From Saccostrea cucullata (Eukaryota), in contig NW_026929981.1 in the NCBI RefSeq assembly GCF_032062105.1, positions 186,001 through 250,000 of the forward strand: 64,000 nucleotides of DNA, in the 5' to 3' direction. The position numbers and the translations under genes are program-made. Within the stretch, counting starts at the first letter, position 1. Each line of letters opens with the position of its first letter. Of this stretch, positions 25,495 through 63,580 are shown one piece after another. Below the pieces are notes generated by a model. That model was given only the letters and a program-made list of their open reading frames with translations. It was not told the DNA's origin and did no database searches.

Positions 25495-25745
25495 CTGTTT
25501 ACGTCCATCGGCATTGTTTTTACATCAATTATTTCATCACTTGGTCTATGAACAACTGCAGTTGTCATTTGAAGACAATATGTTTCATGTTTTCTGAAAT
25601 ATATATTTACGATTCTACGAAAATGGCGTACTTTCGGTTTCTCTTCCAACGGCCAAATTCAATCGGCAATCCTCGGCTGACTCCGCTCCGCTCCAGAGGC
25701 ACGAGTCATCCGAGGAACTCCGAGTCATAAATTTGGCGGGAAACG
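25495..25745 (-). promoter_or_regulatory. Putative promoter and first exon of paralogue A with ISRE/IRF-E
   Basis: Donor CAG|GTAAAA after 25495; GAAACCGAAAGT on the minus strand at 25630-25641; locally CpG-rich; E2F-like TTTGGCGGGAAA at ~25732 and YY1-like AAAATGGCG at ~25620. Confidence 0.55.
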
Positions 25746-26944
25746 TCACGGAAAATTGCTGGGCGCGGATCAAAAATACTTAACATCTATCCTTATGACT
25801 GTTATAAATAAAATCGCACTTGCATGTTGTCATTTACCTGTATCAATTTTATTTTAAAATATTAAAATGTTTAAAAACATATACCTATAGGCAGCCACTC
25901 GAAGTTATTTATCTTTTTTTTCAGAATAGGAGATCCATCACTTGAGACCAACAAAAAAAAAATCAGTTTTATAAACCGTGACATTAAGCTTTGCTGGCAT
26001 CATTTTTCTGCCCTCTATATTCGGAGATAAATTATGTTAGCATGCAAAAAAAAATATCAACACATAAGACAAAAATGTCTACATGCAAGAATATATTATG
26101 TTAGTATGCAAGTCACAAGTCTTAGATCAGAGAATATAATTTTAAGTTGGACAAAGTATACTTACTTCCAGGGTCCGATCGAGATCATACATTCAAGATG
26201 TAACAATTATATTGACATTTATTTAAACATGCAAATTATTTATGTCAATATACATGTACAAGATATAATAAGTTGCATGTCAACATATAGATATCTCGCA
26301 TGCTGAAGTTAACATAATTACATCTGTACATGTATCTAAGATATCCTGGGCTTTTATGCATCAGTTAATCGTGACTTATAATTACATGTAGATTATTTAT
26401 CATTCTGTTTATTATAACTTCACGAACTGTGCAGTTGAATATTTCGTACCTGTCCTGTGTTAAATTAATTCTTTGGTAAAATATGTTTACAGGAACTTCG
26501 ACAGATATTCGCCCAAATGCACTCGCAATCTATATATATATATACGTATTTATAAACAAAATTAAAGTGATTATGAGTAACACAAAGACACGTTCTATTC
26601 TCTAAAATTAAATGCTTACTTTTCTGTATATTATTGTAGTTCTCCGGACATGACCACAGTCACATTTTGATGTTAATGACTTCCGCCCTTCCCGTTTTTT
26701 TTTTTTTTTTAAAGAAGCTGTATTATGCATATAACAAAGCTTTTCACACAACTTTTAATGCTACTAGCTGTTCACTTGCATAGAGAGTTCTAAAGAATTT
26801 TCTCTCCATTTACCTGTGATATCCGAATCTTTCATCCTACGATTCCCCTGAAGAACATTTTAAAAATCCAATTCTACACGAATGTCCATGTCAAAATGTT
26901 CACATAATTTTTTTCTGGTCCAGAGTTCAGAGATTTCATTTTGT

Positions 26945-27370
26945 TTGTATGTTGTTTGACGTCCCCTTCGAGTATTTTTCACTCATGTGGAGACGCCACC
27001 ACTTGCCGATGGAGAGCTGCAAAGTTTGTCCACAGGCACCTGACGTTACTAATTTATATTTAAATAAAAAATATACCCCCTATATATGATAATAAACTAG
27101 GTAGGGGTATATTTTTTTTATTAAAAGAAAAATAAGTAATGTCAGGTGCCTGTGATTTTGTCCTATATTCGGCACTTACGACCATTGAACACTGAGGGAT
27201 CTTTTTCACGCCAACATCTACTGCAATATAGGACCTCGGTTTATACGGTCTCATCCGAAGGACCGGTCTCCACGTCCCACAGTGGAATTCGAACCCGCGA
27301 CGTAAGGATCAACTCCTTTCTCCGGGACTCTAGATCGAGCGGACGCTATACACGTAACCACTGCGCCATA
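26945..27370 (-). mobile_element. tRNA-derived SINE
   Basis: Minus-strand A box TGGCGCAGTGG (~27358-27368) and B box GGTTCGAATTCC (~27283-27294); (AAAC)-like tail at ~26945; interrupted by the insert at 27031-27154. Confidence 0.7.
27031..27154. mobile_element. 124-bp palindromic MITE nested in the SINE
   Basis: CACAGGCACCTGACGTTAC...GTAATGTCAGGTGCCTGTG; near-TSD AGTTTGTC/ATTTTGTC. Confidence 0.75.
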
Positions 27371-27965
27371 CTGGCGACTTCAGAGACTTTAAAATTATCT
27401 TTAATTTACCTATGTTTGTTTTCTTGATTATTTCCACCTATGATGAAGGACAGACCAAACCATATTCCCTTTACCAAAGGACACACTGTACCATGTTTTT
27501 TGAAATGTTAACAGAATTAGAGATAACAACGACAACAGAGTATACAAAAGACATTTCATTCAGAAAAGCTTTTGGGCAATAAATTTGAGCAATAAAGCAA
27601 AGTTACAATGGTCAATTCATTGCAATACCGCAAAATGCATCACTTTGAAAATCATGAAGATACATTTTAATATGCTTTATTTTTAAATGTTTACTCATAT
27701 TTACAAGTGCATACAGCATGCTTTCTCGCTTACAAGTACATCTTAAGAAAAGTTTTTGCTGTTATCACACCACAATAACAAAACACTCATATGAACCCTC
27801 TATTTTACAGCAACCTGTTCAAAAGATTATTTAAGAATAAAACTTTTTCATCAACATGATGTGTAATTAAATTTCTTACATCTCACATCAACATTTTTAA
27901 CACATTCATTCATAATTTTTGAGCTGTGTTTATAGATTTAATAACACACCGAAATGTGTTTGTTG

Positions 27966-30900
27966 CTAATCCTGAAGTACACGTGAACTTCTAACTCTGC
28001 AGAGCAAACCAAAATGAAACATGGTATCCAAAATTTCTTCTCGATCCTTTTTCACTAAAAAGTTATAAGGTTTTGAGTAATGAATTCTACTTCTCAGATC
28101 TTCCACCTTTGAACCTTCAACCAAGTGTGTAAGATGTGTTTTATCCATATCCAAACGTGTGAAAATAATCTGCAATAAATAAAAATAATGTGCTCAGTAT
28201 GTTTATAAATTACCATCATAAGCAGTTCATTGCTTTTGTGCTGGTTATTAATTACATTAATTTTAGTTTTTTTTGTGATTACTGTATATTAATAAATGTC
28301 ACATTAATTATTGCCAATTAAACACGTTCGCTGCGTTTGTTTGTGTTGTGTGTCTGGTGTGAATGTTTTGAGAGGTCATGTGACATTGGTTATTCTTGTA
28401 TTTACACGTGCTTCCGGTTAGGTGACCTAATGTGACCTTACTGCTGACCAATAACTGACCGTTTTTATCTAATTAATATGCATGTTTTAATATCTGCGCT
28501 CAGTATATAAGCACTGTACCCGCCAAATTCTTGACCCCCACGATTTTTGCCTTTATGGTAGAAGACAGATTTACATTATATTATGTCAAAGATTTACTTG
28601 GTTTAATATTTAACTGGATTCCAATTTCCTTTATTATAATCATTATGTAAACGTATTTTTTATTTTATTAATTAATTCCGACAGCAAACAATCATATAAT
28701 TTATGTTTTGTTAATGTCTGTTCTTAAATGTAAAGTATTCGTCTTATGTGTGTATTGTGTTGTGAGAGTGTGTTTGATTTATACTTTGTAGGTTTATTAC
28801 TATATGCACATAAATAAATACAAAACTACTCCTACAAAAGACCCAAATTTGAGAGAAACACCAAGACCCCTTCTACTCTTATAATGTCCCTTAGTATTCC
28901 AATGAGTATTCTACGTGTACATGACTAGTTTTTCCCCTTTATTTCAAAGTAAAAGATTATAGAGATCAGTTGCAACAGGCTAGCGGCATAGGTTTATGAA
29001 CAGCATCTTTGTGGACCTTAAAACAAATTTTTTATTTCAAAGCGACATTTTTGTCAGTTGAAGCAGTCAATTTTGCCGGTCACCGGTTCTTAGGGAAAAC
29101 ACTGAGTCAGTCATCCAAAAAGATTGACTGACAACTCACTAATTATGATCAGAAAAGGACACAGAATCTTTACAGTAATAAAATAAAATAGAAATACTAA
29201 CCATGGTCTTCACACAAATTATTCCTAAACATGTAGTTCCTATGACAGATTTCTTGGTTTCCAGAAGAAGCTCTCCCCCATGTCGTCCCAGCAGTGTCTC
29301 TACAGATTGACCTGTTAACATCAAGTCTCTGATATTGAAATCAGTCGCAGTGTGTCCAGCATGTGCATGTGACCATATCTTTACCTGAAATCATATATTT
29401 TGAATGTGCTTATACTTCTAAAATCTTAAAACTGTATAAATTTGATAAACGAAAAGTCTGTGATGACAAAGTTAATTTACAGTGTACTTTATATTTTGTA
29501 ATAACAACAGAATTAAAATGCAAACCAAAAAGGTTGAATTACTACAGGGTCATGAAATTTCTTAAGATTAGAGAAAATTTTATTACAAACTGAATATTCC
29601 AAAATGTGCTCCATATAAACATACAGAGATGTTTTAAAAGTGATGACTTTGATTTAGCTGAAGCATTTTTTCACAAAATAAATAGAATATACAATGTTAC
29701 TGTTTACAGCTAGCAAATATTCAAAATTTTTATCAAAAATATATACCACTTAGAACTTCCATACGAACCTCTCCAACAGAAACTGTAATAAGAGATGCTC
29801 CTGCTTTTTCCATTGTTGAGTCTCCCTGCAGGCTGTATCTTAGATCAGGAACACTAGCTGTTTCTGTTCTATTAAGTGTCATTTGTACGGTCTGTGAAGC
29901 ATCTCCTCTCCTGCAAAATTTAAGTTAACTCTCAAACTTCATTTAAAAAAAAAAATTCTTTCAGAATTATGATATAAAGAAATAATATTCAGCTGATATT
30001 TAAATAAATTAAATGTGCTTCAAATAAGTGGGGTGAATTTCATTTTTTTCTCATTATATCTGATTCATAATAAAGATTGCCATGAAATATTTGGGGAAAC
30101 ACAACTTTTCTTGTTTTTATTTTAAAATTATTATGAAAACAATAGAACTGAAAATAGTAAAACATCATGCTGTCCTAGAGTTTCTTTCTTGAATTGACAT
30201 TTAAAAAAGAAGACGAAGCAATACAAGAAATATATCTAAACAAAGTTTGATTAATTTTTGAATTTGTTTCAAGCATAAAATAAAAACTCACACAGCATTT
30301 ATCAGGAAAATCTTGCTGAATAAAGTCAAAAGCTGACAGAATTCTCCTTTTACTCCAATTCTTCTTTCAGAAAACAACTCTTTTATAAAGTCAGAATAAT
30401 ACTGAACATACTCCAAGATCCCTGCATGCCAAAGACTGAAAAGATGCCTAAAAAATTAAAATAATTTTTTTAAAATTAGTGTTGTAACGCTAGCTGCAGA
30501 GTATCAAAAATCGTTGCTAAAAGTACATGTAGCATGTCAGTGACAATGGATAGAAAATTTTAAAATTTATAGCAATAATTTTTTTAAAATATGTATTTTA
30601 ACAAATAGTGTGTCTTTCAACATTAAAAAGGACATTCCTGGACCTCTATTTTTCTTACAAATAGCACTCAAATTTCCTCACTAAACATATTAAAATGAAG
30701 CTGGTCCCACAGATTTTTACTGACATATCAAATTTATTTCTGAGGGTGAGTGAGGATATCTGAATATTTCATAATTAACCTTTAGTCCTTATTTAAATTA
30801 CAGATGTACTGATCATATAATGGATTGTAAGCTACAATTTGATAATTGAATCAGATAATAAAATTGGGCCGATTTGCAACACTAGTCATTTAGCATTGTT

Positions 30901-31666
30901 ATGTTTCAGTAAATACAGAAGGAAATGCAAGATTTTAATGACTTTTCCTTGGGTTGAAATTATTCTGTGTTTGATCTCATATCTCAGATATCAACTACAA
31001 CAAGAATAGTTAATAGATGTCTAGGGCCTGTCAGTATTTTATTTCTGGAGAGCTACAGTTCTGCAGCTGGTCCATACCTAGCTTTAATTCTCTTATGACC
31101 CCTATAATTTGAAACAAAGACTTGACATAAAAACCATACCAGGAAAGATCATCTAAAGATGATGCTGATTCAATTTCCACTTTGATTTTTGCTATTGATT
31201 GTGCACATTTTTTGGTTTCTTCTAAAACATCCCCCGAACTCAATTGTTCCATTTTAGCCAACCCTTCATCAGCATCTAAACTATGTAAACACTTTTTCGT
31301 TAATTCAACCAGAAATCCCTTTATCTGAAGAAGTTTCGTCCAAAATGTTGCATCGTTTACTAACACAGAATACGTGTACATATTTTTCAGGACTGAGTTG
31401 TATAACTCTGATAGTTCTGTTGCTTTTTCATCATAAAAGAGTCCATACGATTCTAATGTAAGAATATCCCAGTTTGCTACATGATCATGCCTCGGACATT
31501 TCACTCCTGCAGAACTGTAACTGTCATCGCTTTCACGAGAAGATGGAGATTGTGTTCGAGGGCTTGGGGTTAAATTTCTTTTTCGCTTTCGTCGAACTGA
31601 AGGGTATAATAATGGTGATCGTGTAGAGGAGCTTGTAGCACTACTATCTGAAAAATCCTGTTCCAT
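27966..31666 (-). CDS. Five-exon, 403-aa uncharacterised protein with a predicted PD-(D/E)XK restriction-endonuclease-like domain
   Basis: Exons 31666-31140, 30447-30292, 29910-29769, 29384-29202, 28169-27966. All introns GT-AG with matching phases 2,2,0,0; 1212 nt with no internal stop. Spliced protein has a Ser-rich N-terminus with RRKRKR, then SVPDLRY...ITVSVGE|VK...LLGRHGGELLLE...CLGIICVKTM|IIFTRL. Confidence 0.8.
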
Positions 31667-31736
31667 TTCTTTGCATCTACATGGTATAAGATGTTTGAAT
31701 TGTTTCTGAACTTTGATTACTTTCTCAATCTAGTTT

Positions 31737-31747
31737 ACTTTCACTTT
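31737..31747 (-). promoter_or_regulatory. IRF-E-like site AAAGTGAAAGT ~70 bp upstream of the nuclease-like gene ATG
   Basis: Plus-strand ACTTTCACTTT; matches the IRF1-type AAGTGAAAGT core. Confidence 0.5.
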
Positions 31748-32118
31748 GTCGTGGATACGCGTTTATCAGTAGAGCACGCCCGATTGAAATTAATATACAT
31801 TTTGAATTTCTTAAAGTAATATACGCTATAACGTGCGCCATTTTAAAATACGGCTGGAAATTTATATATTTTGTTAACCAATAAAAGTTACGAAAATGCT
31901 GTAAATTACACCATTTAAATAAAATTCGTTATAAAGTTATCAAATTATAATTATTTATTACCCTGCAAGGAGAATAATGTCTATTTTTAAGTAAATCCAC
32001 CACGTGACGCCGTCGCTGCTTTTAGATTGATAAACAAACACGGCGTCAAGAAAGCGAGGTAAGCCCTTTGAGATACAACTCACTTTTGACATGGATGGCG
32101 TGTTACTATTAATATAAC

Positions 32119-33089
32119 CAGGCGCGTAGCTGCCTATACGCAAGTACGCAAGTGCGTACACATCATTTTCCAAAAAAGAAAGAAAGAAAGAGGGATAAAA
32201 GAAAAGAAGGAAAAAAAGAAAGAGAATTTTATTCGGGGAAAAGAGGCACTACCCATGTTTCAAATTATTTTGCGTCTTATTGTTTCGATTCAATTATTTT
32301 TTCAGCATGTCTGCACATTCAAATTTAGTCCTTTATAAAATTAATTCCAAAAACATCTTCAACATTCTTGAGGGAAAAGAATTGTTGAACCAAAATGTTC
32401 AACTGTTAATCCGCGTAATCATGATTATCCAGACAAATATTTGATAAGGAAAGCGATCTAAGGGACTTTGATCGAAAGAAAAAGTTACAAAGGTCTTGGA
32501 CGACTATCCAAGATATTTAATGTCCGTAGAGGTAATGAATAAATGTCGTTAAACAATTTAAATTATGGCGAACAAAATAAATAATAATATAGCTTCTTTT
32601 ACTGATGTTACCAATTTAAAGAATTATATTATAATTGAAGCATTCTCGAATCGTTTCAGCTATCAAATACATGTATGAAGGTAATCAAAAGACAACAACA
32701 CCCCCGTTTATATTTTGTAATATCTAAACTCCAACTGATGATAACGATATTGAAATTGCTACTCTGTTTTATCTTGATACACTTGGAAACTTTTTTCTAA
32801 TACCTATATGTGCGTAAATTAATTTGATAAATTATCGTTCTCTTCCCGAAGTATCAATGGAAGCAGTATAACTTATAGCTAAGTGTTTGCTCGAGAAAAG
32901 TGATATAATCGTGATTTCTTTTACGAGAAAATGACTGAAAATTTTCTTAAAATCCAGGAGCTTCCGGGGGCTTCGCCCCCTGGGCCCCCACCAGGCCTTT
33001 GCCCTGGACCCACTGGGGGCCTCAGGGCGGCCCCCAGACCCCCGACCGTTTTCTGAGTACACTTCATTTCCATGCTGGCTACGCGCCTG
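32119..33089. mobile_element. Non-autonomous TIR DNA transposon, 5-bp TSD ATAAC
   Basis: TIRs CAGGCGCGTAGC / GCTACGCGCCTG; ATAAC on both flanks; GC-rich hairpin-like block at 32955-33045. Confidence 0.8.
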
Positions 33090-40469: not shown

Positions 40470-43400
40470 CTAAACAAGAGTACCATGCTTTTTATACAGA
40501 TGTCCATAACACTCGCGGCTAGTCTTGAAAAACTCCATGCATATCCAGCAAATGTGGCTCTTGCAATCGCGACATTCAATGCGCTGACAACCGCCATTTT
40601 TCTCTATTCCAGCAAAACAGTTCGGGCACAATTTCCTGTTTTGAGGGTCCCGGCGCATCCATTCTTTAAGTCCCGTTTCATCATTTCCATTTTCCATCTG
40701 GTACATGGCACATGATACTCCATTGTGGTACTCAATGTGGCATTTGTTGCACATACCAGTTCTACAAACACTGCATACAATTCTCCTCCCTTCTTTGCTG
40801 ACTTTGTATACCATTGGGCAATCTGGAGTTATGCAATATCGAACTTTGTCCTTGTTTTCTGCAACAAAACTGGACACAGACGAATGCAGGATACTTTGAA
40901 GACGACAGAATCCATGTTTTGTCATGTTCACAAAATCCTTCCATGCCCAAAGCATATCACAATCAATGTGACAACATTTGAGTGGGAATTGTTTGTTTTT
41001 GATAGAAGATTCTATGTGGAATTTTATACAATCTCTACAGTACGGATGGCCACAGGATTCCAGTCGGTATATTTCGCTGTCCGCTATTTCGGTAAAACAT
41101 ACGCCACAATTCGGTTGCTCAGTACCTACAACTGAGCATTTTTTTCTCAAACAATCAGTAAGCTCTTCAATGCATTGGACAGCTTTCTCAACCGCTTCAT
41201 CTCGACCTAACATTTTAATTCGATGACTCCTGTGATCAAGTTCCACCGTTGACAAACCGCACTCTTTCTTCAGGCCACTAAGGTCTACACTATGCATTAA
41301 TACAACTGTCTTCATTAAACCTGGTGGTTTGGATTCCCCTTTCAAGTCAATTACACGGAGTTTGGAGGAAGTCATTTTTTCAACATACTTTTTTATCTTC
41401 TCTTTAGCTATTCCTCGGTCTTCACTTTGACCATGGACAGAAACAGACGTATTTCTGTGATCAAACAAGATTAATGTGTTTGTCTTTCTCATTACTTTTT
41501 CTACCTTTTCTTGACCGTCGGAAGTGAACAGATACCGAAGTGCTGGCATGTTTTCCAAGTCAATTGTCTCACCTTGAAGCATTCTTTGTACTTTGTTTCT
41601 TGTGTTTACCATACTTTCAATGCAATCTGCATCAATATCTATCATGTAGTTTCCATTTTTGAGTAAAGTTACAGTCAATTGCCTTCCACCGTCTTCATTC
41701 TGTATTTCTTCACAGTATCTTTCAATATTTATTGCCACTCGTTTGAAGACCGGCGCCAAAACAAAGATTCGAGTATGTATTTCTGGCGTGATAGTTACTG
41801 GATCATTTCCAATGGATATTCTATTGTGTAGTCTTGAGCATGCTCCAAATCCTTCCTCTGGGTCTTTAAATGTAACATAAGCCTCATAAGTAATTGCAGC
41901 AGGTTTGGGCTCAATGACAGTGACATTGAATCTATTTTTCTTTATATTAGTTTCCTGTGTAAACTGACTCTCTAATCTAGTTTTCAGACTGTACAACATT
42001 TCTGGTGTTGTATTGACTTTTTCCCGTATAACAACAACTTTTAAAATGTCATTTTCAGAAATGTCAAAAGAATTCAGAAAACTTTCGTGTAAAACATCTT
42101 CATTAACAAGTTCACCCAAGCCTGCTACATGCAGTTCTTTATTTGGATTATTTTTACTTCGCTGTATCTTTACTCGTTTCCCTGCAACAACCATGTTGCT
42201 GAACAATCTTGATCTTATGACGTCGTCTATTTTGTGTTTGTCACGCATCTCAACAAAAGCAAATCCTTTTGACTTTCTTCTACACCAACTCAGCCTTGCC
42301 TTAAGTAGATCGGCTTCTTCACATTTCCCAATCCCTTTCGGTGGTTTTGCAGAAATTTCTGATGTTTTCCCACGTGTTTCCATTACTGCCGCTTTAGCGA
42401 ATTCAGATTTATCATATACGATCTGGCCAAGATATTTAGGATTAGTGTTGTTTGGAGATTTAGGTATGAAAGCTCGGATTGATCCAAAACGTTCAAACCA
42501 ATGTACCATTTCGTCGTCAGAATAGAAAGCATTTGCATTACCGAAAATAAACACATTTTTGTATTCATCCTGATATAACAGGTCATGGATTAGCCCTCCT
42601 GCTCCTATGGAGATCCTTACTCCGTGAAACTCTGAAACCAAAGGATGTTCCACCGTTTCATTCCTTACTTTTTCTCTGATAGGATCAACTGCTAATTGCA
42701 GAGTCTTAAAGGAAATTTCTTGGTCAGCCAGTGGCGCAAAAATTGAAATTTCTCCTTTATCACGATTTGCATCAATCACGAACACGGAGTTCTTGCATTT
42801 TGTCGTTAGATTTTCTTGCATTGCTTTTACTTTGCTATATCTTGGACCAACAATTTCTCTGTGAACTTGAACACCAACATACTCCGTCAAAACTTGTGTA
42901 ACCTTTCTCTTTTCCACGGCATCAATATCAAAGTCCAGAGAACCATCATTCAGTGCTTCTTCGACATCTTCATCCGCTACAGCTGTGATATTTAGGGCAA
43001 AATCACGTGAAGTTTGCATCACCCTCTCGACAATAACCCAGTTAGGGTAAGAAGCAAGAGACTGAAAGGCAGACGATGGATGAACAATCACCTGTTGTCC
43101 TTTGTCTATAAAGAAGTAGCCAGCTTTTTCATGTCCAAGAAAAAAGCAGACATTGCATTGAAATGATTTAAACAGTAGTTTCTGCAAAATTCTATCTCTA
43201 TCTACAGCATCTGTAAATTTATATTTTATGTTGATGGACAGGTCTCTCCTAAGAGTATATAAAAGTTCCTCTGTAGCATCGTCAATGTTTCTCATAGCTT
43301 TTCCATTTATTGAATTATCTCTACACCATTTACCTCTCTGTCTTGCGGGAACTTTGTGCCATTCTTTGAAAACACTAAGATTGGTAAAGTGATCTCCAAA

Positions 43401-46400: not shown

Positions 46401-48688
46401 TTAATACGTCCCTTTTGCTCACCGAAGGTTTCCTTTCTTGTTTTACATTTTTCATTTCTTTCCTCTTTATGATGGCTTTGTCGACTGGGGTTCCGATCAG
46501 TTTGGTATTCAAATACACAATCTTGGGCTGCAGTGTTGCAAGAATTGATAGGTTTGCATGTACTTTTTTCACCTTGCTGTTTGACTTTTGTTTCCATTCG
46601 TTCTCCTGAATCAACATTCGGTTTACTTATGTCTTTATCCTGAATGATATTGTGTAACTTTTGAGTGGTTATTTTTACCATACCAGTGTTTCCTTTTATT
46701 TTGGAATCAATTTTTCCATCACAACTCGATTTACATAGTGATTGTACCACATTTGTAAGTGATTTTTCTGGTTTTTCATCAGTCTTTTTAAAATATTTGT
46801 CTTCTTCTTCCTTTGTTTCTGTGTTTTTGCATTTCTTGTCTCTATTTTCTTCAACAGCAACCTCCACTTTTTCATCATGCTTAAAACTGCCTTGTACAGA
46901 ACATTTATTGCTGTCTTTTGACTCCTTTTTCGTAGAATGTGAACTTGTTACGGCGCTTCCTACGGGAAATGACATGGGTTTAAATTTGTGTTTATCTTGT
47001 TTAACACTGGCTACATTTTGTCTTCCATTTGTTGACTTGTCTTTTGGTTCAAAGTGACTTTGAATTACTCTTGAAGATTTAGCATTTGTTTCTTCAATCC
47101 GTTGGATCAATTGATCTGTTTTAAAATCAGAGATCTCGTTAGTTTTACCTGTACTGCCACCCTGTTCTTGAGGTTTTGTTGGATTACACTCTTTCAGATT
47201 TCCCTCTACTGATCTGACGTTTCTATTTTGAACTAAATCTGGTTCTTGTTCTATATTTTTAACTTTTATGAAATCTTGCCATTTTTTAAACTCTGGATCT
47301 ACTTTTTTCCAACCACATCCGTCGGCATATACTCCTCTGCAATGATATGTGGGGCTTTTCTCTCTGGATTGTTGAAATCTTTTTCTTGTTTGGTTTTCAA
47401 TAGGTTGTATGTCTTCTTCCTCTACATCTCGAAACTTGATTTTTCTTTTATCTGCTTTACTACTTCCACCAGGTAATTCTTTGGACTTCTTGTAATATCC
47501 AGAAAAATCACTGGTTTGGTTTGATTCTTCTGAATAGTTCATATCTGCTTGTTGTACAATTCTTTCCACTGCAAATTCATTTTGCTTCACTGCATTCTGT
47601 GAGACTACAAATGGATTAGCAGAGGCACTGTTTTTGTCTGGCTCAAGGTTTTCACTTCGTTTCATATCTTTCATGTCACTTTCTAATTTTATTTCCCAAG
47701 TAGGAGGGGTTCGCGGTTCCCATTTCATACCATACTGTGGAAAATGAGGAACTTCTTTGGTTGCATTGTCAGATAATGTGCAAGATGTACTATTTTCATC
47801 TGGTTTTATGCTTTTATTTTCCTTAATGTCATTTAAAGCAACTATAGAGTATTTGCCTCCATGTTGGATAACTGAAGTATTTTTCAGCTCATTTTTGTCT
47901 TTTCTTACCGAAACTACAGAGTTATAATTACTTAAACCTTCTTCCTTAAGACATTTTTGACCATATAAAGGTTTAGGTGAATTAAAACTCATTTTTGCTT
48001 GGTTTTCCACATAGTGATCTTCTCCCATCACATCTCCAGAATCTGAATTTCTAACATATTTGGAGCTTAAACTAGGCATTGTACAATCATTCTGCACACC
48101 TAAGATAGGATTTCCTTGACTACATTTTGCAGAAAATTCAGTTTCATATTTTTTATCCCTCATCTGAAATCTCGAATTTTTACTTGAAAGCATGTTATAT
48201 TGAATTTTTTCATGGGATGGTATGTTTGAAACATCCATGCGAGGATTATTATCATTGTCCTCAACAGTTTTCACCCTCAAACATGCATTTCGATAGTTTT
48301 CTACTGTAGGAACCAAAGGATTCGAGCAAGTCTTTGTATCTTTCCTTACAGTCGGTGGATATACCTCAAAATCCATGTAGGAAATATTTTCAGTGCCTGT
48401 TACTTGTTTATTTGGTATTAGTGTTATTTCATCACTTGTAAGACCCTCTTCCCACGTTGTACAGGAGGGATACCCTGGTGATTTAACCTCCTCCAGTTCT
48501 CTAGCTGGGGGCGATGGCGATATTTTCAGATGCGCATTATTTGATTTATAAGAATGAAAATCCTCCCTTAATGTAGCCAAATTATTCGTGTACGACTCGT
48601 CTGTGGTCCCAGTTGATACTTTAGCCACTCTTTCATTGACTTGGCCTTCTGACTTAGTCGCTTTCTTTTTTGTTGAGCTTTGGCCCAT
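40470..48688 (-). CDS. Paralogue B: DEAH helicase-RRM/KH-RBR E3 ligase, ~2739 aa after correcting a 1-nt deletion at ~44905
   Basis: ORFs 48688-44900 and 44834-40470 join as IQKIESAKHN/VTQKDTDYLLKRYEIECTRLEQALPIYARR, colinear with paralogue A. Full helicase motifs I-VI, RNP1 KGFAFVEM, RING1-IBR-RING2. 8219 + 1 nt = 2740 codons. Confidence 0.88.
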
Positions 48689-49984
48689 TCTTTATATTCT
48701 ACAACAAATTAAACAAAATTTAAACACAAAACTGTTTTCAACAGAACAAGCAGTCTGGGAACATTGCATTAGCAATACACACCTCCTACCGAATGTTATC
48801 TGGTTCCCAAGACAAAACGAAAATGCCATAGTTCCGTTCAAAATTCATTTATGAAGCAGATTTAAAATGCAGTATATTTCATCGAGATAAATTCATGTAC
48901 CAAAGATCAGCTCAACATTTGCAAGTGTTCAGAAAATGCAGGAAAACATTGAAATTTAAAATTGAAACTGAAGTGGAACGAAATTTAAACTTATCTGTAA
49001 CGTATCAAGATTAATTCGCATACCAGTTCTGAAAGCATTTAGAAAAAAACAGAGTGCATGGAAAACCAAATGCATGGGGCAGACTGACAGACAAAGTCAA
49101 GTTCCATCTAATCTCTCTAGAGAAGCGGCGAAGCTTTCGTCCATTTCTCAAAGAGAATAGGTTCCATCGTGTATCACTAAGGCAATATTTATAGTTTTTA
49201 AACATTTACATAGCAAAAAGGAAAATGCAGTGTTGTTAAAGGTAGGCTTATGGTCATCTAAATTTCTATACATTTTTATGGTGTCTTGATTTCGTTTAAG
49301 AAGTTTTTGTGATTTACATGTGCATGTTTATTAATCATATACTGATGGTCATAGTGAATTCAAATACATGTACATTAAAAATGATGAATACAAAAGTAAC
49401 TTAAAAAGAAGTTAAGAACATCAATTAAATGTTTTTCCATACATGTGTTTTGATAGCTGATTTAAGAAAAAAATGTAATAAAAAAAATAGGTACTGAGTA
49501 TTTAATAAAACCTGGTAGAATTTCAAATCTGGTTCGTTTCACCGGAAACATTGTTATCCACTTAAACATGCAAATGTTTTAGCTGCATTTATAATATACT
49601 TGTTATTGCATTTTTGTATAACATCAGCATTTTATAAAGACACTATAATTTACAACATAATTTCAAATTAAATAATAACAAAATATTTCAAAACATAGCT
49701 AAAAAAATTTTGAAAATGATTAGTCACAGATTATTCTCTTTGTGCTTTGAAAATCATCTGGATATTTTTAATCAATTTTTAAATGTTGTACATGAACTTC
49801 CGGATACAGTTTTTATTTACGATTTACGTCTTCTTCTGAAAATTGCATGTACATGTATATGTATAAAACATGTAGATGGATTATGATGAGGAAACGAACA
49901 TTTAAACTACATGTATGTCCTTTAAAATTAGTGCTCAGTTTTTACCTTTTGAAATATGTGGAGATAACAAACAGAATTCAAGCT

Positions 49985-52072: not shown

Positions 52073-52520
52073 AATGTTAAATTAAATAATACATGTGATA
52101 TTAAAAGATGTCCCATTCATTAAAGAAGAAAATCATAGTTCGGTCCAATTTGAATGATTTTTTCAATAACAAAGCTTAGTTTTTCGCATTTCGAGACGAG
52201 GGTGTGTGAGGTTATCGTCATTATTTAAGCAAATGTATATCATTTACTAGACCGGAAAAGACTGAAAACAACATTTTTGCTGTACCTACATAATTATGCA
52301 CTCCTCAAACTAAATCGATAAAGAAACAAACCTTGCCATAATACCAGGGTAGGCATGAATATAAAATAAGCAGAATAAAATCATGTCCCAAAAATTCTTG
52401 TAATGATTTTATAGTCTAATAAAAGAGGCATATTTACCCTATAATGTTTCCTTTGCGTTTATGGAGAGTAGTTCCAATATCAATGTAAATGTCATCATGC
52501 CTGTTGTTTAAATATCCTAC

Positions 52521-52631
52521 CTCAACAAATAGGTGATCTGACTAAACTTATGCATTTTACACAGTCTGATAATTTCTTGCATTGGTTGCACTTTGCTCCT
52601 CAATTCATTGAAAATAATTACTTTCACTTTC
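52521..52631 (-). promoter_or_regulatory. Putative first (5'UTR) exon of paralogue B with IRF-E GAAAGTGAAAGT
   Basis: Donor GAG|GTAGGA after 52521; ACTTTCACTTTC at 52620-52631. Confidence 0.55.
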
Positions 52632-53850: not shown

Positions 53851-53884
<34 letters not shown>

Positions 53885-54327: not shown

Positions 54328-54360
<33 letters not shown>

Positions 54361-54370
54361 TGTGAGCTAA
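53851..54370 (-). mobile_element. Short complete CvA-like element
   Basis: AACAAGAGGCCCATGGGCCACATCGCTCACCTG...GAGCCTTCGGCTCATGTGAGCTAA; both termini present. Confidence 0.85.
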
Positions 54371-54798: not shown

Positions 54799-55005
54799 AG
54801 GCCTGGGGGCCATAAAGCTTAGACGAAGAGCTCACTTTTGATCTCAATTTCACTTTTTCCAAAGGATTATATAGTGGAAAAGTGAGACTGAGATCATAAG
54901 TAAGCTCGTCGTCTAAGTTTTATGGTCCCCAGGCCTATATATTCCTTTGGTAAAAGAGAGACTGAGATCAAAAGTAAGCTCGTTTTCTAAGTTTTATGGC
55001 CCCTA
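54799..55005. repeat. Palindrome with a partially duplicated right arm
   Basis: AGGCCTGGGGGCCATAAAGCTTAGACGA...TCGTCTAAGTTTTATGGTCCCCAGGCCT, then a second GAGACTGAGATCA...CTAAGTTTTATGG. Confidence 0.7.
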
Positions 55006-56548: not shown

Positions 56549-59500
56549 CTAACCGTATGTGTAATGAGTTTGGGCCATATGGCTATAACAATCGGTACTT
56601 GTTTTGAAATAAGCTTTGCAAAACCAACAAATATGACATTTACACTGAGAACATGTCATATGATTACAGCCATCATATTTTTCTATACCTGTATAGCATT
56701 TTGGACAAAGATCTCTATTCAAAGTATCACGACGCATCCATTCACCAAGCCCAGTCTCGTCTAGCTGCTTTTCTTTCTGAAACACTGCACAGGATTTGCC
56801 CGTGTGGTATTCGACGTGGCACTTGCTACACAGTGCTGTGTGGCAGAGGAAGCACACAAACCTGCCTCCTCCCTGACTGACCTTGTACACCATCTGACAA
56901 TCAGGTGTGATGCAGTACCTAGCTTTATCTGTATTCTGGGCGGCGTAGCAGGAAACCGAAACATCTATCAACGTTTGAGTCGTACAGAATCCGAATTCCT
57001 TCATGTTATTAAAATCACTCCAAGCCCAGAGCATATCACAACCTTCATAACAGCAACGTAGGGGAAACTCTTTTGTGCTTATAGCAGAATCCAAATGCAA
57101 CCTCACACAATCCCTGCAGTATGCGTGACCACAAGATTCTAGTCGGTAGAGATCACATTCGGATATGGAGCAGAAACAAATTCCACATTCTGGATCGGTG
57201 GATGGTATTTGGTGTTGATTGTCTTCCATCAACACTTTCGTAAGTGCGTCAATGTCATTAATTGCCAACTGTATTGCTCCATCGGAGCCTAACATTTTAA
57301 TCTTATGTCTTCTATGGTCAAGTTCTACGCTGGACAAATGTGATTCCACTTTCAATCCTTGAAGGTCTACACCATGCATCTGTATAATTCGTTTCATCAA
57401 TCCAGGAGGCTTGGTTTCGCCCTTCAAATCAATCCACCTAATCTTTGAGGAGGCCAGTTTTTTAATATATTTTTGGATTTTTGAAATTGCTGAAGCCCGA
57501 TCATTCTCTTTGCCATGAACGGAAATAGTCGTATTTCTGTCGTTCAAAATTACAAGAGTGTGGGTTTTCTCCATTATTTTCTCAGCTTTGCTCCGTCCGT
57601 CCCTTGTGAACATATATCTTATACTTGGATTATCTTCCATTTTTAAGATTTGACCTTGAAGAAGATTTTGTATCTTGTCCTTATCATATTGTCTACGCTT
57701 TCAGCTTCTATATTCAGAATATAGTTACCCGTTGTGTTCTGCTTTATATCAACAGTTACTTGATCTTTCTTAGCTTTAACACAAAAATCTTTGATATCTT
57801 TACTAACCCGTTTGAATACCCGTTCCAGTACATATAAACGAGTGCGAATTTCTGGAATAACAGTAACGACATTGCCAGTGATGAACAACTGGTTTTCGCT
57901 TTGCAATTTAGCGCAGACCTCATCACCTTGTTCTGCGTCAGTAAAGGTTATAAAACCGCTGAAGTTATAGTCTTGCGGTCTGGGTTCTCTTATATGTACA
58001 TTGAATCTGTTTGGATTCACGATTTGTGAAATATGCCGTTCAATTCTTCTCTTATGTGTGTCCATTATTTCCCTTGTTGTAATTACCCTCTCGCGTGGTA
58101 CAAAGATTTTTCCAATTTGATTTTCGGGTATCTTGAAGGCCTCCACAATTCCTTCTCTCAAAATGCCTTCATTGACAAGATGATCGAAACCTTGAACGTA
58201 CAATTGGTCAGCGTTCTCTCTACTTCGACTAATTTTAACATTTGATCTACCAACTGAGACTTGTATCATCGTACTTAAAGTCAAAACGGTTTCCAGTGTT
58301 TCCGAATGCATAATTTGCACGAACCCAAATCCTCGAGATTGTCTGCGACACCACATTATTTTGGCTTTAAAAGCATCAGAATCCTCTGTTTTCCAACCTG
58401 GGGGTTTAATGTGAACTTTAGAAGCACTGTGACCTGATACAGTATACGTAACTGCTTTCTTCGCAGATTCGCTATTCTCAAACACTACTTCACCACGGTA
58501 TCTTTGAGTAGTATTTGCTGGAGATTTCTTTTGAAACTTTCGAATTTCGCCAAACTGTTTCATCCATTCCACTAATTCTCCGTCAGATTCAAATTCATCT
58601 GCTGAGCAGTATACATAAACATTGTTATAATCATCTTCACACAACAAATCTTGTATTAATCCACCTGGTCCAATGGATAGTTTGACATTATAACACCTAG
58701 GATAGATAGGAATGATAATCTTCTCCTTTCTTACATTTTCTCTAATCTGATCAAGTTCCATTTTCAGCGTTTCTGTTGCCACTTCATCCTTATCTGCAGG
58801 TGCATAAATAGTAAGTTCGCCCTTATTTCTGTCTGCATCAATTACAAAGACTGAATCTGTATTTTCATTTTTTAGCTTAGTTTCGAGATCCTTTGCATGT
58901 TTCCACCCTTTACCCACAAATTTGTACAGAGTATGTGATCCAATGTATTCTGTATAAATTGGTTCAATTCTTTTCCTTTCAATTCCTGTTATGTCAAACT
59001 TTATTTCATTTCTTTTTAAGGCTTCATGTACGTCGTCTTCATTTACTTCTGTTACATTAACGGCAAACTCTCGAGATGTGTTCAAAACTTTTTCAATTAT
59101 AACCCATTTTGGATATAATGCAAGAGACTGGAAAGATGCAGACGGATGAACAGTCATTTGCTGGTCTTTGTCAATGGAATAATACCCAGCCTTTTCATGC
59201 CCAAGGAAGTAAGAAAGGTTGCTACGAAAAGCCTTGAAGATAAGCTTTTGTAAATTCCTCTCATTCCTGCCTACATCTTTTAATTCAAACTTTATTGTTA
59301 TATTCATTTGATTTTTCAAGATGAATCTGATCTCGTTTACAGTGTCTCGAATACTTCTCATGGCCCTTCCATTGATGGAGTTATCCAAGCACCATTGACC
59401 TTTCTCCTTCTCGGGAATGTAATGCCATGTCTTAAAGACACTTAAAAATGTGAAATGGTCACCTTTGCTATGACAGAAAGGAATTTTTAATTTGTCACAT

Positions 59501-61737
59501 CTATCTTTCTGTTCTTTAGTTCCAGCTCTGTAAAACAAGTTCCCACTCACTGTGCATGATGCCGCAATTATGATAGCATCTAAACCAACCTTCATCTCAA
59601 TTGCATCATGAACAAAAACTCCCAAATTTGGGTCCAAGGGTAGTTGAGCAATCCAGCGCCCTAGATCTGTAATTTTCCCATTTTTAACTGCTGCAAGATC
59701 GACCAATTGCTGAAAGGCTGTTTCCATTGAATTATTTGGTGGTGCCTCGACAAAATCGAAATCAAGAGGGTTCACATTCAGTTGCATCAATTTCAGAATG
59801 GCATGACCGATATGAATTCTCAAAATTTCTGGAATAGAACAGGCTGCCATGTTGTCATAAACTTCTTCGGAATAAAATCGGTAGCATTTCCCTGGGGCCG
59901 TTCTCCCCGCTCTTCCTTTCCTTTGATCTGCGGAACTTTTTGTTATTTTAATAACTCTTAAAGAGTTCACTTTTTTGTCGGGGTCATATTTCATTTCTTT
60001 TGCAAGCCCAGTGTCAATCACATATTTCACTCCAGGAATTGTTACAGAAGTTTCTGCCACATTAGTGCTAATTACAATTTTTCTTTTACCCAGTGGCGTT
60101 TCTTTGAAAATTTTGTTTTGTTCCTCTGTTTGAAGTTTACCATGAAGTGGCAATATCCAGTGATCAGTTCTACCCTCAAGTTCCCACTGCAGTCTTTCTA
60201 TACACTTTTCAATTTCCAACTGACCTGTGAGAAAAAGTAGAATATCACCAGGGGGTTCTTTATCATGGATTTCTAACGTCTTTTCAACTGCTTTTCTTTC
60301 ATATTCTTCCAAGTCTTCATCTTCAGAACATGTCTCCCATTCTATATCGACGGGATACATTCTGCCAGGTACTTTAATCACTGGACAGTCTTTAAAATAT
60401 CGAACAAAAAGTTCTGGATCAATTGTTGCAGACGTCACAATGACACGCATGTCATATCTCCGAGGTAAACACTTCTTTATCATGCCAAGCAAAAGGTCCG
60501 TGTATATGCTTCGCTCATGTGCCTCATCAATAATAATGCAGGAGTAATCATTTAACAAAGGATCTTTGATGCATTCATTTAACAGTGTATGGTCAGTCAT
60601 GTACACTACTTTTGTCTGGTCAGAAACTTTCTTCTGAATTCCACATTGATAGCCCACTATATCTGCAACAGTAGACTTCATTTCACTGGCGACCCGCTGT
60701 GCAAGACTTGCAGCTGCAACTTTTCTAGGCTGTGTGCAAACAATACGGCCATTGGAAGGCAGTTTAGACTGCAAAAGATATTGTGTTAATTGTGTGCTTT
60801 TCCCAGATCCTGTTTCGCCAAGAAGGATGCATACTTGATTTTGTAAAACAGAATTGACTATCTCTGAGCGCTTAGCATAAATAGGCAGTGCTTGCTCTAG
60901 CCTTGAAAACTCTATGTCAAATTCCCTGAGCAGTTGATCTATGTAGTCTTGTCTTACAGAAATTCCTTCAAACTCATTTAATCGTCTTTTGATATCTTCT
61001 ACAGAACTTTCAAACTCGAAAAGTTGATTTTTAAGTTCCAAAATTTTACTTTCAAGTGTTTTTGTCTGCATTTCTCTCTTTGTCTGCATTTGGAATTCAG
61101 GAACGGGAATATAATTTGTCTTTTTCTTGGTTTTCTTTGTTCCAAGAAAATCTGATAATTCTTGTTTGGTTTTCGTAATTTTTTCTTGATGCATTCCCAT
61201 TATATGGATACTACGTTCCTCAACATTCTGTAGATTTTTATCAATAAATTCTTTACTCACTTTTGCAACTTCCTCTCTTAAAAAACGGCAGCAAAAACCT
61301 AGACTTCTAGTTTGTCGCATCCACAGCTGAAACTGTTTATAGGCATTGTTGCTTGGGAAATGAATCCAGATGGAAGCAGATAATCCATTAGGATTTGTTG
61401 TGAAAAATTCAATGTTAAATTCGATACCTGATGGCAACTCTCTCTTTTTTAAGTGTTCCAAGAAAGTTTTTTCTTCTTTGAATGGGTGGTAAACAATGAG
61501 ATTGTATGTCGGCCCTGGTTCAGTTAGTAATCTTTCACTTTTCTTGTGCAGCATTTCTGACGGCTGTTCCTTGTTTTTGACATGTTTGGGTGTTGGTGTT
61601 GGTGTGTCTCTCGACTCCCCCTGAGGAGGTTGATCCTTTGTGTCTCTCGGTCTCTGATCTCTGTAATTTCTGCGCCCGCCACCACCTCGCCTCTGATTTC
61701 CTCTCCCTCTGTTACCACCGGAACGTCTTCCATCCAT
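56549..61737 (-). CDS. Paralogue C: DEAH helicase-RRM/KH-RBR E3 ligase with RGG N-terminus, ~1731 aa after restoring a 7-nt deletion at ~57672
   Basis: ORFs 61737-57643 and 57640-56549; all helicase motifs, RGFGFVQI, RING2 CPKC...DGCNHMTCSQC. The junction MIRTR/QNLLQGQILKMED aligns with paralogue MVRTRNKVQELLEG with 7 nt missing. Confidence 0.88.
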
Positions 61738-62465
61738 CGTTGTGTATCTATAATTTCAAAGAATTGTTCAGTATTTTAAAAAAGTTTAAGGACATACGCA
61801 AAGTATCCATGTACCTTATTTACTGATAATTTTTAAGATATTCTTGATTTATGATTATACATTGTAGTGCCATCAGATGTTCATAGGCAAAAAAAAGTCA
61901 GCATGCAACACCAGACGTTTTGAAAAGATATCAATTGAAAATTATTGTATAATTCAAAGAAAAATATATAAAAGATATTGAACATATATTCTATGTGTTT
62001 TGTTTATCCGAAATTGTTTTAGAATAAGTGTACAACAGCATTCATATACATTAAAATCTAGTACACTGTTCCTTTAAGTATTGGAACTCTTCAACTCAAG
62101 TGAAAAAGACAATAAAATTCAAACTACGTTGCATATGTCCTTAAAAACTTATTTTATCTGACAAAGTAATTCCTAGTGAAATACCTTTTGTTACTTGGAA
62201 CTTCTGTTGAATTTTATTTAAACATGCAGTATTGTTTAAGTCATCAAATAGGTTAGGTGTTCATTTATTTTTGGATTTACAGTTTCCAGTTCTATTTATA
62301 ATTTGATATAGATTCTTTAAATAAACCCTGGAAAATTGAGATTGCTATTTTTAAAATGTCATAAATATACAGCTGATTTCAGGTATTTATAAAGAAAATA
62401 GTAGATTTTTTTTATTTACTCTTTATACTGAACAATAAAATTTCGACAATATACATTGTTATAAT

Positions 62466-63069
62466 TAGGGATGTCAAAATTGTCAATAATTGAATATACG
62501 ATAAAATAAATATTGTTATAATAAAATCAGAATAAAAAATGTTCAAAAAATGCACTACTATTTTTCAACATATAAAATGTAATGATTGTTTGTTTTTTTT
62601 TGAAAATTCAAAAGATTCTTTAGTATGTTCCAAATTAATTGATCGTCTCACTAAAGCCTGCACTGATAACTCTTACAAATATATACCAAGCAGAACAAAA
62701 TATAGCAATTACCTTTTGCTAATTATAACATAATGATTTTTAATGATATTTAGATAAACAAGAATACTGTAAAACTGGGTCCTTACAACAATGAAAGTTG
62801 ATTGTTAGTACTGGACACTATTATACCACTAATCAAGTGAACAAATAAATAAACTACTCTTAAATACACACTTCACACCTTTGAGGTAATCCAAGAGAAG
62901 TGTTTTTTTTAAATTTGTACAAACTTGAATTTCTAATAAAACTTTCCAGGTTTTTCTCTCTTTTTAATGCTTGTATACTTAAAAACGAATATTCGAATCA
63001 TAAATTTATATTCGAATATCAACTCATCGAATGAATATTCGAATATTCGAATATTCGTTGACATCCCTA
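62466..63069. mobile_element. hAT-type MITE, 8-bp TSD GTTATAAT
   Basis: TIRs TAGGGATGTCAA / TTGACATCCCTA; TSD at 62458-62465 and 63070-63077; subterminal (GAATATTC)n. Confidence 0.85.
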
Positions 63070-63420
63070 GTTATAATAAAATCAGAATGTTAGCCTATTT
63101 TTCAACTCGATGTGATTTTAGAACGTTACAAAATATACTCCTTATACATATGGATTATCGATATAACATACTGGTATACCATAAATTAAATTTTACCGGG
63201 TCAAAATGTAACAGAGAATATAAAGGAGCTAAATAATTAATAAATCCCATCTTGATTTTCTACTGTAAATGTGTGGTATAATTTTGTAGATATTCAAAAG
63301 TTTTAAGACGTCAATTGCTAAAGATAAATGACGAATAGACTGTCATTTCAATATCTATACTTGATGATTATTGATTTTAATTTTTAAAGCTTATTTGTCA
63401 AATAAAAGCAATGCACATAC

Positions 63421-63580
63421 CCTAAATTGTCTTTTTGTCTATCAGAAGTCCATATATATTATCCGACAGATAGCAAGTAACTGTTGAAATACAGGTGATG
63501 ATGTCATTGGAAATCAATGTGCTTGTTTCGTTTTGAAAATAGAAGCATTGTGCGAATTTCAGAAAACTTGTTTCACTTTC
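63421..63580 (-). promoter_or_regulatory. Putative first (5'UTR) exon of paralogue C with IRF-E GAAAGTGAAAC
   Basis: Donor AGG|GTATGT after 63421; GTTTCACTTTC at 63570-63580; second weaker site AAAACGAAAC at ~63525. Confidence 0.55.

What the first reader, a model, noticed from the sequence alone, without database searches (positions are those of the whole stretch)
25630..63580. IRF-E/ISRE motif at an equivalent position ahead of all four genes
On the minus strand: GAAACCGAAAGT (25641-25630), GAAAGTGAAAGT (52631-52620) and GAAAGTGAAAC (63580-63570) lie ~135, ~100 and ~150 nt upstream of the candidate first donors of A, B and C. AAAGTGAAAGT (31747-31737) lies ~70 nt upstream of the nuclease-like gene ATG. 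All have the same orientation, and I could not align the surrounding sequences. IRFs are known to bind GAAANNGAAA. Caveats: AT-rich DNA gives chance hits (weaker ones at ~2075, ~20382, ~51265), and the first exons are predictions.
Basis: partly seen in the sequence, partly recalled or inferred. Interest (0 to 1): 0.72.

Follow-up and report, generated by a model that had tools for sequence, protein, structure and literature searches.

The report
Interferon-type switches on oyster antiviral cluster
In a rock oyster, three neighbouring RNA-helicase/ubiquitin-ligase genes and an unstudied nuclease-like gene each have an upstream DNA word matching the binding site of interferon-regulatory factors, so the cluster is likely switched on together during the antiviral response, although binding and transcription starts are untested.

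Summary
All four motifs are present at the stated positions and strand. The IRF1-type word AAA[CG][CT]GAAA[CG] occurs on the sense strand in all four upstream intervals (joint chance about 1e-4; only 0.02-0.09 with looser words). A, B and C are DEAH11/12-like helicase-RBR ligases; N is an uncharacterised PD-(D/E)xK-like protein (Saccostrea cucullata LOC134282663). New support: two RefSeq isoforms of N rebuild exactly from an exon just behind motif B, spliced over the whole of helicase B into N exon 2, so motif B precedes an annotated leader exon apparently shared by two genes. N's ATG, 70 nt behind its motif, is fixed by homology. A's first exon has partial RNA support and C's almost none. No TSS was measured. 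In Pacific oyster a DEAH12-like gene is among the top 30 poly(I:C)-induced genes, and oyster IRFs activate ISRE reporters. A, B and C also have a GAS-like word 7-8 nt from the motif. Best reading: IRF-driven promoters on an antiviral gene cluster (0.65). This is a new member of a known kind; the scan noted similar promoters on mollusc PARP14 genes. Cross-species conservation and binding remain untested.

The parts
25630..25641 (-). Motif A, GAAACCGAAAGT (ISRE-type), in a CpG-rich stretch
   Evidence: CpG o/e 1.2-1.3, 13-14 CpG per 200 nt against a window mean of 3.5
25613..25621 (-). GAS-like TTCGTAGAA, 8 nt downstream of motif A
25495..25629 (-). Predicted first exon of helicase A; ATG 25568 gives a 25-residue in-frame extension when spliced to 20246 or 20237
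   Evidence: RNA depth in bin 25410-25644 in 3 of 4 runs; junction not seen
12222..20246 (-). Helicase A main coding exon, DEAH11/12-like helicase-RRM-KH-RBR, two frameshifts; S. cucullata LOC134282661
   Evidence: (100% over residues 1-1373 of P0005)
31737..31747 (-). Motif N, AAAGTGAAAGT (IRF-E/BLIMP1-overlap type), 70 nt upstream of ATG, CpG-rich surroundings
31140..31666 (-). Gene N coding exon 1 (isoform X1 only)
27966..30447 (-). Gene N coding exons 2-5 (30447-30292, 29910-29769, 29384-29202, 28169-27966) with PD-(D/E)xK-like D250, E275, K277; LOC134282663
   Evidence: exact rebuild of P0280, P0171, P0279; 3 of 4 introns among the 15 listed joints, each in 4 of 4 RNA runs
52620..52631 (-). 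Motif B, GAAAGTGAAAGT (IRF-E/BLIMP1-overlap type)
52604..52612 (-). GAS-like TTCAATGAA, 7 nt downstream of motif B
52521..52582 (-). Leader exon behind motif B: ATG 52582 to GT donor 52521 encodes the N-terminus of RefSeq N isoform X2, spliced to N exon 2 across a 22-kb intron that contains gene B; presumed first exon of B too
52332..52339 (-). Second leader donor: ATG 52339 to donor 52332 rebuilds RefSeq N isoform X3; only candidate on the window's minus strand
40470..48698 (-). Helicase B main coding exon, DEAH11/12-like helicase-RRM-KH-RBR, one frameshift
   Evidence: covered by RNA contigs over 46500-48835
63570..63580 (-). Motif C, GAAAGTGAAAC, with further AAANNGAAA[CG] words at 63672 and 63534
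63589..63596 (-). GAS-like TTCAAGAA (N2), 8 nt upstream of motif C
63421..63569 (-). Predicted non-coding first exon of helicase C (weakly supported)
   Evidence: single donor-like site within 320 nt; depth 0.59 in 1 of 4 runs and 0 in 3
56549..61747 (-). Helicase C main coding exon, DEAH11/12-like helicase-RRM-KH-RBR, one frameshift
   Evidence: RNA contigs

Best explanation
Four IRF-consensus words lie upstream of three DEAH11/12-like helicase-RBR ligase genes and one nuclease-like gene of a rock oyster, and they likely act as promoter-proximal IRF sites that switch the cluster on in the double-stranded-RNA response. Steps: (1) shown in Pacific oyster by others: poly(I:C) induces IRFs, which activate ISRE reporters; (2) inferred: an oyster IRF1/IRF8-type factor binds the two GAAA half-sites at each promoter, possibly helped by STAT at the GAS-like word 7-8 nt away in A, B and C; (3) shown at annotation level for motif B: the exon right behind it is a spliced leader of N isoforms; inferred: the same leader also splices to B's own coding exon, and the exons behind motifs A and C are their first exons; (4) shown for the family in Pacific oyster, inferred for these copies: transcripts rise 2- to 7-fold after poly(I:C); (5) inferred: the products (RNA-binding helicase-E3 ligases and a PD-(D/E)xK-like nuclease) act as antiviral effectors.
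For: Joint chance 1.3e-4 for the strict word without assuming any TSS; 1 antisense match in the same 4 intervals and 0 on either strand of 1-12221, where I found no host gene. Two anchors independent of the motifs: B leader (exact rebuild of P0171 and P0279) and N ATG; a strict word within 250 nt of both has a chance of about 2e-5. The word persists although the flanks do not align and the A/B and C lineages split before Crassostrea, Ostrea and Saccostrea diverged (tree, support 98/98 and 99/97). Lafont 2020 (PMC7064767, Tables S3A and S5A): CGI_10021954 log2FC 1.72/2.79/2.13 at 0.5/1/10 days after poly(I:C), 26th and 18th by p-value at the first two times; CGI_10010105 1.07/1.93/2.12; both also rise after OsHV-1. 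The 3 Aplysia transcripts mapped to CGI_10021954 are named DEAH12, and 2 of 3 lie in the interferon-like module with IRF1/IRF8 (PMC8195618). CgIRF2 and CgIRF8 activate ISRE reporters (PMC5557890). B and N share AAAGTGAAAGT with the human BTN3A3 and SP110 EMSA probes (PMC2938208).
Against: No TSS, binding or conservation was measured. Significance falls to 0.02-0.085 with looser words, and the strict word was chosen after seeing the sites. An equally good match lies in a satellite at 51273. C's first exon has almost no RNA cover (0.59, 0, 0, 0); A's bin is empty in 1 of 4 runs and adjoins a repeat-like bin. One N contig (X6 record 20) stops aligning at 31685 with 76 5' letters unlike the window, and no X6 contig covers 31686-31754, so N's 5' end is unresolved and may lie elsewhere. 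No B leader-to-B exon 2 joint was seen. The C. gigas induced genes could not be assigned to A/B or C one to one, and there are no induction data for N. All three helicase ORFs are frameshifted in this sequence. Single IRF or STAT knock-downs did not blunt cGAMP-induced genes in Nematostella (PMC8713801). Two non-oyster DEAH12-like loci had no strict word upstream, although both are short.
Confidence: 0.65

Rival explanations
1. The words are chance AT-rich matches or inert leftovers copied with the gene duplications; the genes are induced through other elements (for example NF-kB) or from promoters elsewhere, and the first exons of A and C were in effect chosen because a motif was there.
For: Loose words give only 0.02-0.085; donor-like sites follow 43% of positions. 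A satellite copy gives an equally strict match. A and B are close paralogues (76% nucleotide identity), so they are not independent. Nematostella IRF knock-downs had no effect while NF-kB mattered.
Against: B and N are anchored independently of the motif. Flanks have diverged beyond alignment while the word remains. N is unrelated to the helicases.
Confidence: 0.17
2. The sites serve mainly BLIMP1/PRDM1 repression (or IRF/BLIMP1 competition) and set basal or cell-type expression, not antiviral induction.
For: B and N match the BLIMP1 consensus AAGTGAAAGT, and BLIMP1 and IRF1/2 compete on such sites; the paper calls the overlap probably ancient (PMC2938208).
Against: In that paper G-to-C changes at positions 3 and 9 together exclude BLIMP1 but keep IRF binding; A has C at position 3 and C has C at position 9, so the common denominator of all four is the IRF word. 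An oyster BLIMP1 was not examined here.
Confidence: 0.08
3. Only some sites work (B and N, perhaps A); motif C, or the assignment of motif B to helicase B, is wrong. The motif-B promoter would then belong to N alone and B would be transcribed from another start.
For: The only annotated use I could see of the B leader is in N isoforms. Spliced to B exon 2 its ATG would give a 22-codon upstream ORF ending 3 nt before B's ATG. C's exon is barely covered.
Against: B's coding exon starts with an acceptor similar to A's and so needs an upstream exon; the only annotated upstream exon in the 7.9-kb interval that I could see is this leader. C has three IRF-like words and a GAS-like word together.
Confidence: 0.1

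Closest known systems
Vertebrate IRF-E/ISRE promoters, including IRF-E/BLIMP1 overlap sites of BTN3A3 and SP110 (PMC2938208, passages; PMC7819612, passages)
   Same: AANNGAAA core with two GAAA half-sites (N has AAAG plus GAAA); B and N share AAAGTGAAAGT with the two human probes
   Different: No binding or reporter data here; oysters have no true interferon or ISGF3 (own knowledge); the target genes are not known vertebrate ISGs
Human ISRE+GAS composite promoters: APOL6, UBE2L6, TRIM69, PARP14 (PMC10287828, passages)
   Same: A TTCN2-3GAA word lies 7-8 nt from the IRF word in 3 of 4 genes; human spacing is 0 to 415 bp in either order
   Different: GAS matches here are weak-consensus words noticed after the fact (chance about 0.02 each for N3 within 30 nt, 0.10 for N2-4 within 60 nt); N has none
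[quoted passage not shown] 2018, seen only as cited in PMC13524488); CgIRF2/8 on mammalian ISRE reporters (PMC5557890, passages)
   Same: Same factor family and word, same animal family
   Different: Those concern a cytokine promoter or mammalian reporters; here the candidates are endogenous effector promoters in a tandem cluster
[quoted passage not shown]
   Same: Same DEAH11/12-like family (through the Aplysia mapping for CGI_10021954; by name only for CGI_10010105)
   Different: Known only as rows in supplements; no promoter analysis or function in the passages seen; orthology to A/B versus C not resolved
IRF/STAT motif enrichment in poly(I:C)-induced Nematostella promoters (PMC8476169, passages)
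   Same: Invertebrate dsRNA-induced genes carry IRF and STAT words near their starts
   Different: Genome-wide statistic in a cnidarian, not single sites

Membership tests
IRF-E/ISRE promoter element | AANNGAAA core, two GAAA-type half-sites 6 nt apart | tested here: met
   4 of 4 match AANNGAAA; 3 of 4 match GAAANNGAAA, N has AAAGTGAAA without the 5' G (consensus)
IRF-E/ISRE promoter element | Enriched over background at these genes | tested here: met
   1.3e-4 for the strict word, but 0.02-0.085 for looser words
IRF-E/ISRE promoter element | Lies at or near the transcription start | tested here: inconclusive
   B: 38 nt before the ATG of an annotated leader; N: 70 nt before ATG but 5' end unresolved; A partial, C weak; no TSS data
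IRF-E/ISRE promoter element | Bound by an IRF and required for induction | not testable with these tools
   Only indirect: oyster IRFs activate mammalian ISRE reporters
IRF-E/ISRE promoter element | Conserved at the orthologous position in related species | tested here: inconclusive
   No eukaryote genome held; metagenome and viral scans gave no oyster locus
Antiviral inducible (ISG-like) genes | Induced by dsRNA or virus | tested here: inconclusive
   Met for the helicase family in Pacific oyster from published tables; not for these copies; no data for N
ISRE+GAS composite promoter | TTCN2-4GAA close to the ISRE | tested here: met
   3 of 4 (A, B, C), 7-8 nt apart; none at N
ISRE+GAS composite promoter | STAT binding and contribution to induction | not testable with these tools
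   none
BLIMP1/PRDM1 site | AAGTGAAAGT with G at positions 3 and 9 | tested here: inconclusive
   Met at B and N; A and C each carry one of the two G-to-C changes
DEAH11/12-like helicase-RBR ligase | DEAH helicase, OB, RRM, KH_DEAH11 and IBR domains in one gene | tested here: met
   Pfam hits in A, B and C, e.g. KH_DEAH11 E about 1e-23, Helicase_C 1e-15 to 1e-17, IBR 1e-10 to 1e-13
DEAH11/12-like helicase-RBR ligase | Uninterrupted reading frame | tested here: not met
   Frameshifts in all three; RefSeq marks A 'LOW QUALITY PROTEIN'; assembly error versus real lesion not resolved
PD-(D/E)xK nuclease (gene N) | Conserved PD...E-x-K residues | tested here: met
   D in 46, E in 43, K in 40 of 51 aligned relatives; window protein D250, E275, K277
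PD-(D/E)xK nuclease (gene N) | Restriction-endonuclease-like fold | tested here: inconclusive
   Model of the S. echinata orthologue, pLDDT 84: VIA Z 10.6 and 10.4 to two mitoribosome chains, 7.2 to BpuSI, 7.1 to DrdV; Foldseek no hit at E 0.001; no Pfam family; Atlas HSDR_N cluster TM 0.46/0.71
PD-(D/E)xK nuclease (gene N) | Nuclease activity | not testable with these tools
   none

The most novel reading that the evidence does not exclude
The locus is an IRF-driven antiviral effector cassette in which one inducible promoter and leader exon is shared: it splices either into an 8-kb helicase-RBR ligase exon or, skipping that whole gene, into a shortened form of a mollusc-expanded PD-(D/E)xK nuclease. 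That would make the nuclease family a new class of interferon-like effector, and the DEAH11/12 helicase-ligases direct IRF targets lost from vertebrates.
Probability: 0.2. Interest if true: 0.72.

Novelty: new member of a known kind. Interest (0 to 1): 0.45.

Why it matters
Oysters mount an interferon-like response without interferon, and few native IRF target promoters are known. Four short, mutable sites in one cluster give a direct test of whether oyster IRFs drive effector genes. They nominate two unstudied effector classes: DEAH11/12-like helicase-RBR ligases, already strongly induced in published tables, and an uncharacterised nuclease-like family expanded in Saccostrea. The shared leader exon is an unusual way to couple two unrelated genes. 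IRF sites on invertebrate antiviral promoters are expected, so the surprise is moderate.

Tried and rejected
Own-genome search: none held, so no genome-wide background or paralogue promoters. Laying RNA on 46500-64000: joints and loose ends were swamped by repeats, and the B and C first-exon junctions were not among the 15 joints listed (816 not shown). Laying on 25410-32459 showed N introns but no TSS; 117 joints not shown. The runs are from a relative (mostly 85-95% alike) and contig depth is no measure of expression, so depth differences between runs were not used. Search for proteins carrying A's predicted exon-1 peptide: no homologue of A's N-terminal ORF among longer proteins; no meaningful match in stored homologues. 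Scans for related loci with N exon 1 found nothing (viral, metagenome). The helicase scan returned 80 loci, judged from identity and coverage to be mostly unrelated DEAH/HrpA-type helicases; I examined 2 of 80 (L001, L002), both non-oyster and short upstream, with no strict word. Promoter homology between A and B was not supported. Papers: 10 searches. 'DEAH12' gave 6 papers, none on immunity in the listing; 'DEAH12'+'oyster' 2; 'At4g01020/At5g10370/DEAH11' 11; DEAH11/DEAH12/antiviral/RBR; oyster+ISRE+IRF+promoter 22; ISRE+Nematostella. None showed an ISRE analysis of these genes, but main texts only are searched and subscription papers are missing. Supplements of PMC7488030 had no hit; bioRxiv supplements were closed and could hold promoter or induction data. 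PDB sequence search for N gave only weak coiled-coil matches. No complex prediction was run.
Full report
Observation. Their flanks do not align convincingly: 10 of 12 pairwise tests were unremarkable and 2 reached 2/300 and 4/300 shuffles. N's word lacks the 5' G and fits AANNGAAA, the consensus given in PMC7819612 (passages), not GAAANNGAAA.

Chance. The loose word AAANNGAAA occurs 86 times and says nothing. GAAANNGAAAS occurs 8 times against 3.27 (4 of 100 shuffles reach 8). AAA[CG][CT]GAAA[CG] occurs 8 times: the four sites, two coding, one antisense intronic, and one variant satellite copy; 6 non-coding against 1.4-1.6 expected. Without assuming any TSS, the chance that each of the four upstream intervals (2.3-8.8 kb) holds a sense-strand match is 1.3e-4 for this word, 0.02 for GAAANNGAAA and 0.085 for AAANNGAAAS. 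The strict spacer follows IRF matrices as I recall them and was chosen after seeing the sites, and A and B are paralogues, so 1e-4 is an upper bound on the strength. Donor-like sites follow 43% of positions within 60-200 nt, so predicted first donors need outside support.

The genes. A, B and C are DEAH11/12-like proteins with helicase, OB, RRM, KH and IBR (RBR ligase) domains in one large exon each. A equals Saccostrea cucullata LOC134282661 (100% over 1373 residues). A has two frameshifts, B and C one each; whether these are assembly errors is unresolved. In a 13-row tree (6 of 16 chosen homologues were dropped for lack of the anchor motif) A and B group with Ostrea and Crassostrea genes (98/98) and C with another set from the same genera (99/97), so the two lineages are older than those genera. 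N is LOC134282663: five coding exons rebuild the 403-residue X1 protein exactly, and 3 of its 4 introns are among the 15 listed joints, each in 4 of 4 RNA runs. It has no Pfam family. D, E and K of a PD-(D/E)xK-like motif are kept in 46, 43 and 40 of 51 relatives. A model of the S. echinata orthologue (pLDDT 84) gives Z 10.6/10.4 to two mitoribosome chains and about 7 to the restriction enzymes BpuSI and DrdV, with no significant Foldseek hit. 'Nuclease-like' is therefore fair but unproven.

Are the motifs at promoters? For B there is independent support. RefSeq isoform X2 of N begins with 20 residues encoded at 52582-52521, directly behind motif B, and is rebuilt letter for letter by splicing the donor at 52521 to N exon 2 at 30447. 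X3 is rebuilt from 52339-52332, the only candidate on the minus strand. I saw the protein sequences and names only; that such isoforms rest on RNA-seq junctions is my knowledge of the RefSeq pipeline. For N the ATG is fixed by homology and the region is CpG-rich, but one RNA contig of a relative stops aligning at 31685 with 76 further letters unlike the window, and no contig of that run covers the motif; divergence, a paralogue or another upstream exon could each explain it. For A the predicted exon gives an in-frame 25-residue extension, lies in a CpG-rich stretch and its bin is covered in 3 of 4 runs (18.1, 67.6, 2.9, 0), next to a repeat-like bin and without a junction. For C cover is 0.59 in one run and 0 in three. 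No TSS was measured.

Is the family antiviral-inducible? In Lafont et al. [quoted passage not shown] PMC8195618 (passages, one supplement) maps CGI_10021954 to three Aplysia transcripts named DEAH12, two of them in the module with IRF1, IRF8, RIG-I and ZNFX1. I could not assign these C. gigas genes to A/B or C, and found no data for N. Oyster IRF2 and IRF8 activate ISRE reporters (PMC5557890, passages), and CgIRF1 binds ISRE (cited in PMC13524488, passages). Against: single IRF or STAT knock-downs did not reduce cGAMP-induced genes in Nematostella (PMC8713801, passages), although IRF and STAT words are enriched in its poly(I:C)-induced promoters (PMC8476169, passages).

Further anatomy. TTCN3GAA lies 8 and 7 nt behind motifs A and B, and TTCN2GAA 8 nt before motif C; N has none. 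This resembles human ISRE+GAS composite promoters (PMC10287828, passages) but was noticed after the fact and each word has a chance of 0.02-0.10. B and N also match the BLIMP1 consensus, whereas A and C each carry one of the two G-to-C changes that together exclude BLIMP1 in human cells (PMC2938208, passages); the word common to all four is the IRF one.

Mechanism and verdict. Most likely (0.65) these are promoter-proximal IRF sites that co-induce the cluster in the dsRNA response. Shown: the words, the gene structures, the annotated leader behind motif B, and family-level induction in another oyster. Inferred: TSS positions, first exons of A and C, use of the leader by B, IRF and STAT binding, effector function. 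Rivals: chance or inert inheritance (0.17), only some sites functional (0.10), BLIMP1-dominated repression (0.08). It works like a vertebrate ISRE promoter; membership is met on sequence and untested on binding and function. It is a new member of a known kind, and earlier scan notes report similar IRF+STAT promoters on mollusc PARP14 genes (unchecked). My 10 paper searches found no promoter analysis of these genes; supplements I could not see may hold one. Other papers opened: PMC8765752, PMC5869526, PMC9437489, PMC8218723 (passages, little bearing) and PMC7488030 (supplement search, no hit). Interest 0.45, carried mainly by the shared leader exon and the nomination of an unstudied nuclease-like family.

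Noticed in passing
window 52582-52521 and 52339-52332 to 30447 (minus): RefSeq isoforms X2 and X3 of gene N start at the motif-B leader and skip all of helicase B in a 22-kb intron; they lack N's first 176 residues (three long predicted helices) but keep the PD-(D/E)xK-like residues.
   Followed up: partly
window about 19650, 15050-15290, 44900-44912, 57643-57700: Each of the three helicase genes has at least one frameshift in this sequence; assembly error or pseudogenisation not resolved.
   Followed up: no
window 52582-52521 joined to 48698: If the leader splices to B, its ATG forms a 22-codon upstream ORF that stops 3 nt before B's start codon.
   Followed up: no
gene N family: 109 representatives at E 0.001; many named members are Saccostrea paralogues, others from Magallana, Pinctada and Argopecten; no Pfam family. 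The S. echinata orthologues of N and C lie on contigs of the same length with close gene numbers, suggesting the neighbourhood is kept.
   Followed up: partly
window 44900-48691 and 17300-20246: A and B carry long, low-complexity, fast-diverging N-terminal extensions (about 1000 residues) absent from C; A has an internal duplication (19250-19589 against 19725-20079, 69%).
   Followed up: no
window 25645-25879: High RNA-contig depth just upstream of motif A suggests a repeat in or beside the CpG-rich promoter; whether the motif is repeat-derived was not tested.
   Followed up: no
window 31843-32115: A repeated element ends about 100 nt upstream of motif N.
   Followed up: no
window 830-1474: Broken ORFs that look like a non-LTR retrotransposon remnant (recalled resemblance; no Pfam hit).
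   Followed up: no
window 9531-10871, 20438-21307, 22293-23170, 51030-52102, 53933-54374: Arrays of 146-167-nt tandem repeats typical of oyster satellite/Helitron-like elements (recalled label); one copy yields an IRF-like word at 51273.
   Followed up: partly
window about 26970-27370: tRNA-headed SINE-like repeat, highly represented in RNA runs.
   Followed up: no
L001, L002: Metagenome contigs with DEAH11/12-like genes from other, probably non-mollusc, animals; L002 holds a complete 1.7-kaa single-exon ORF.
   Followed up: partly
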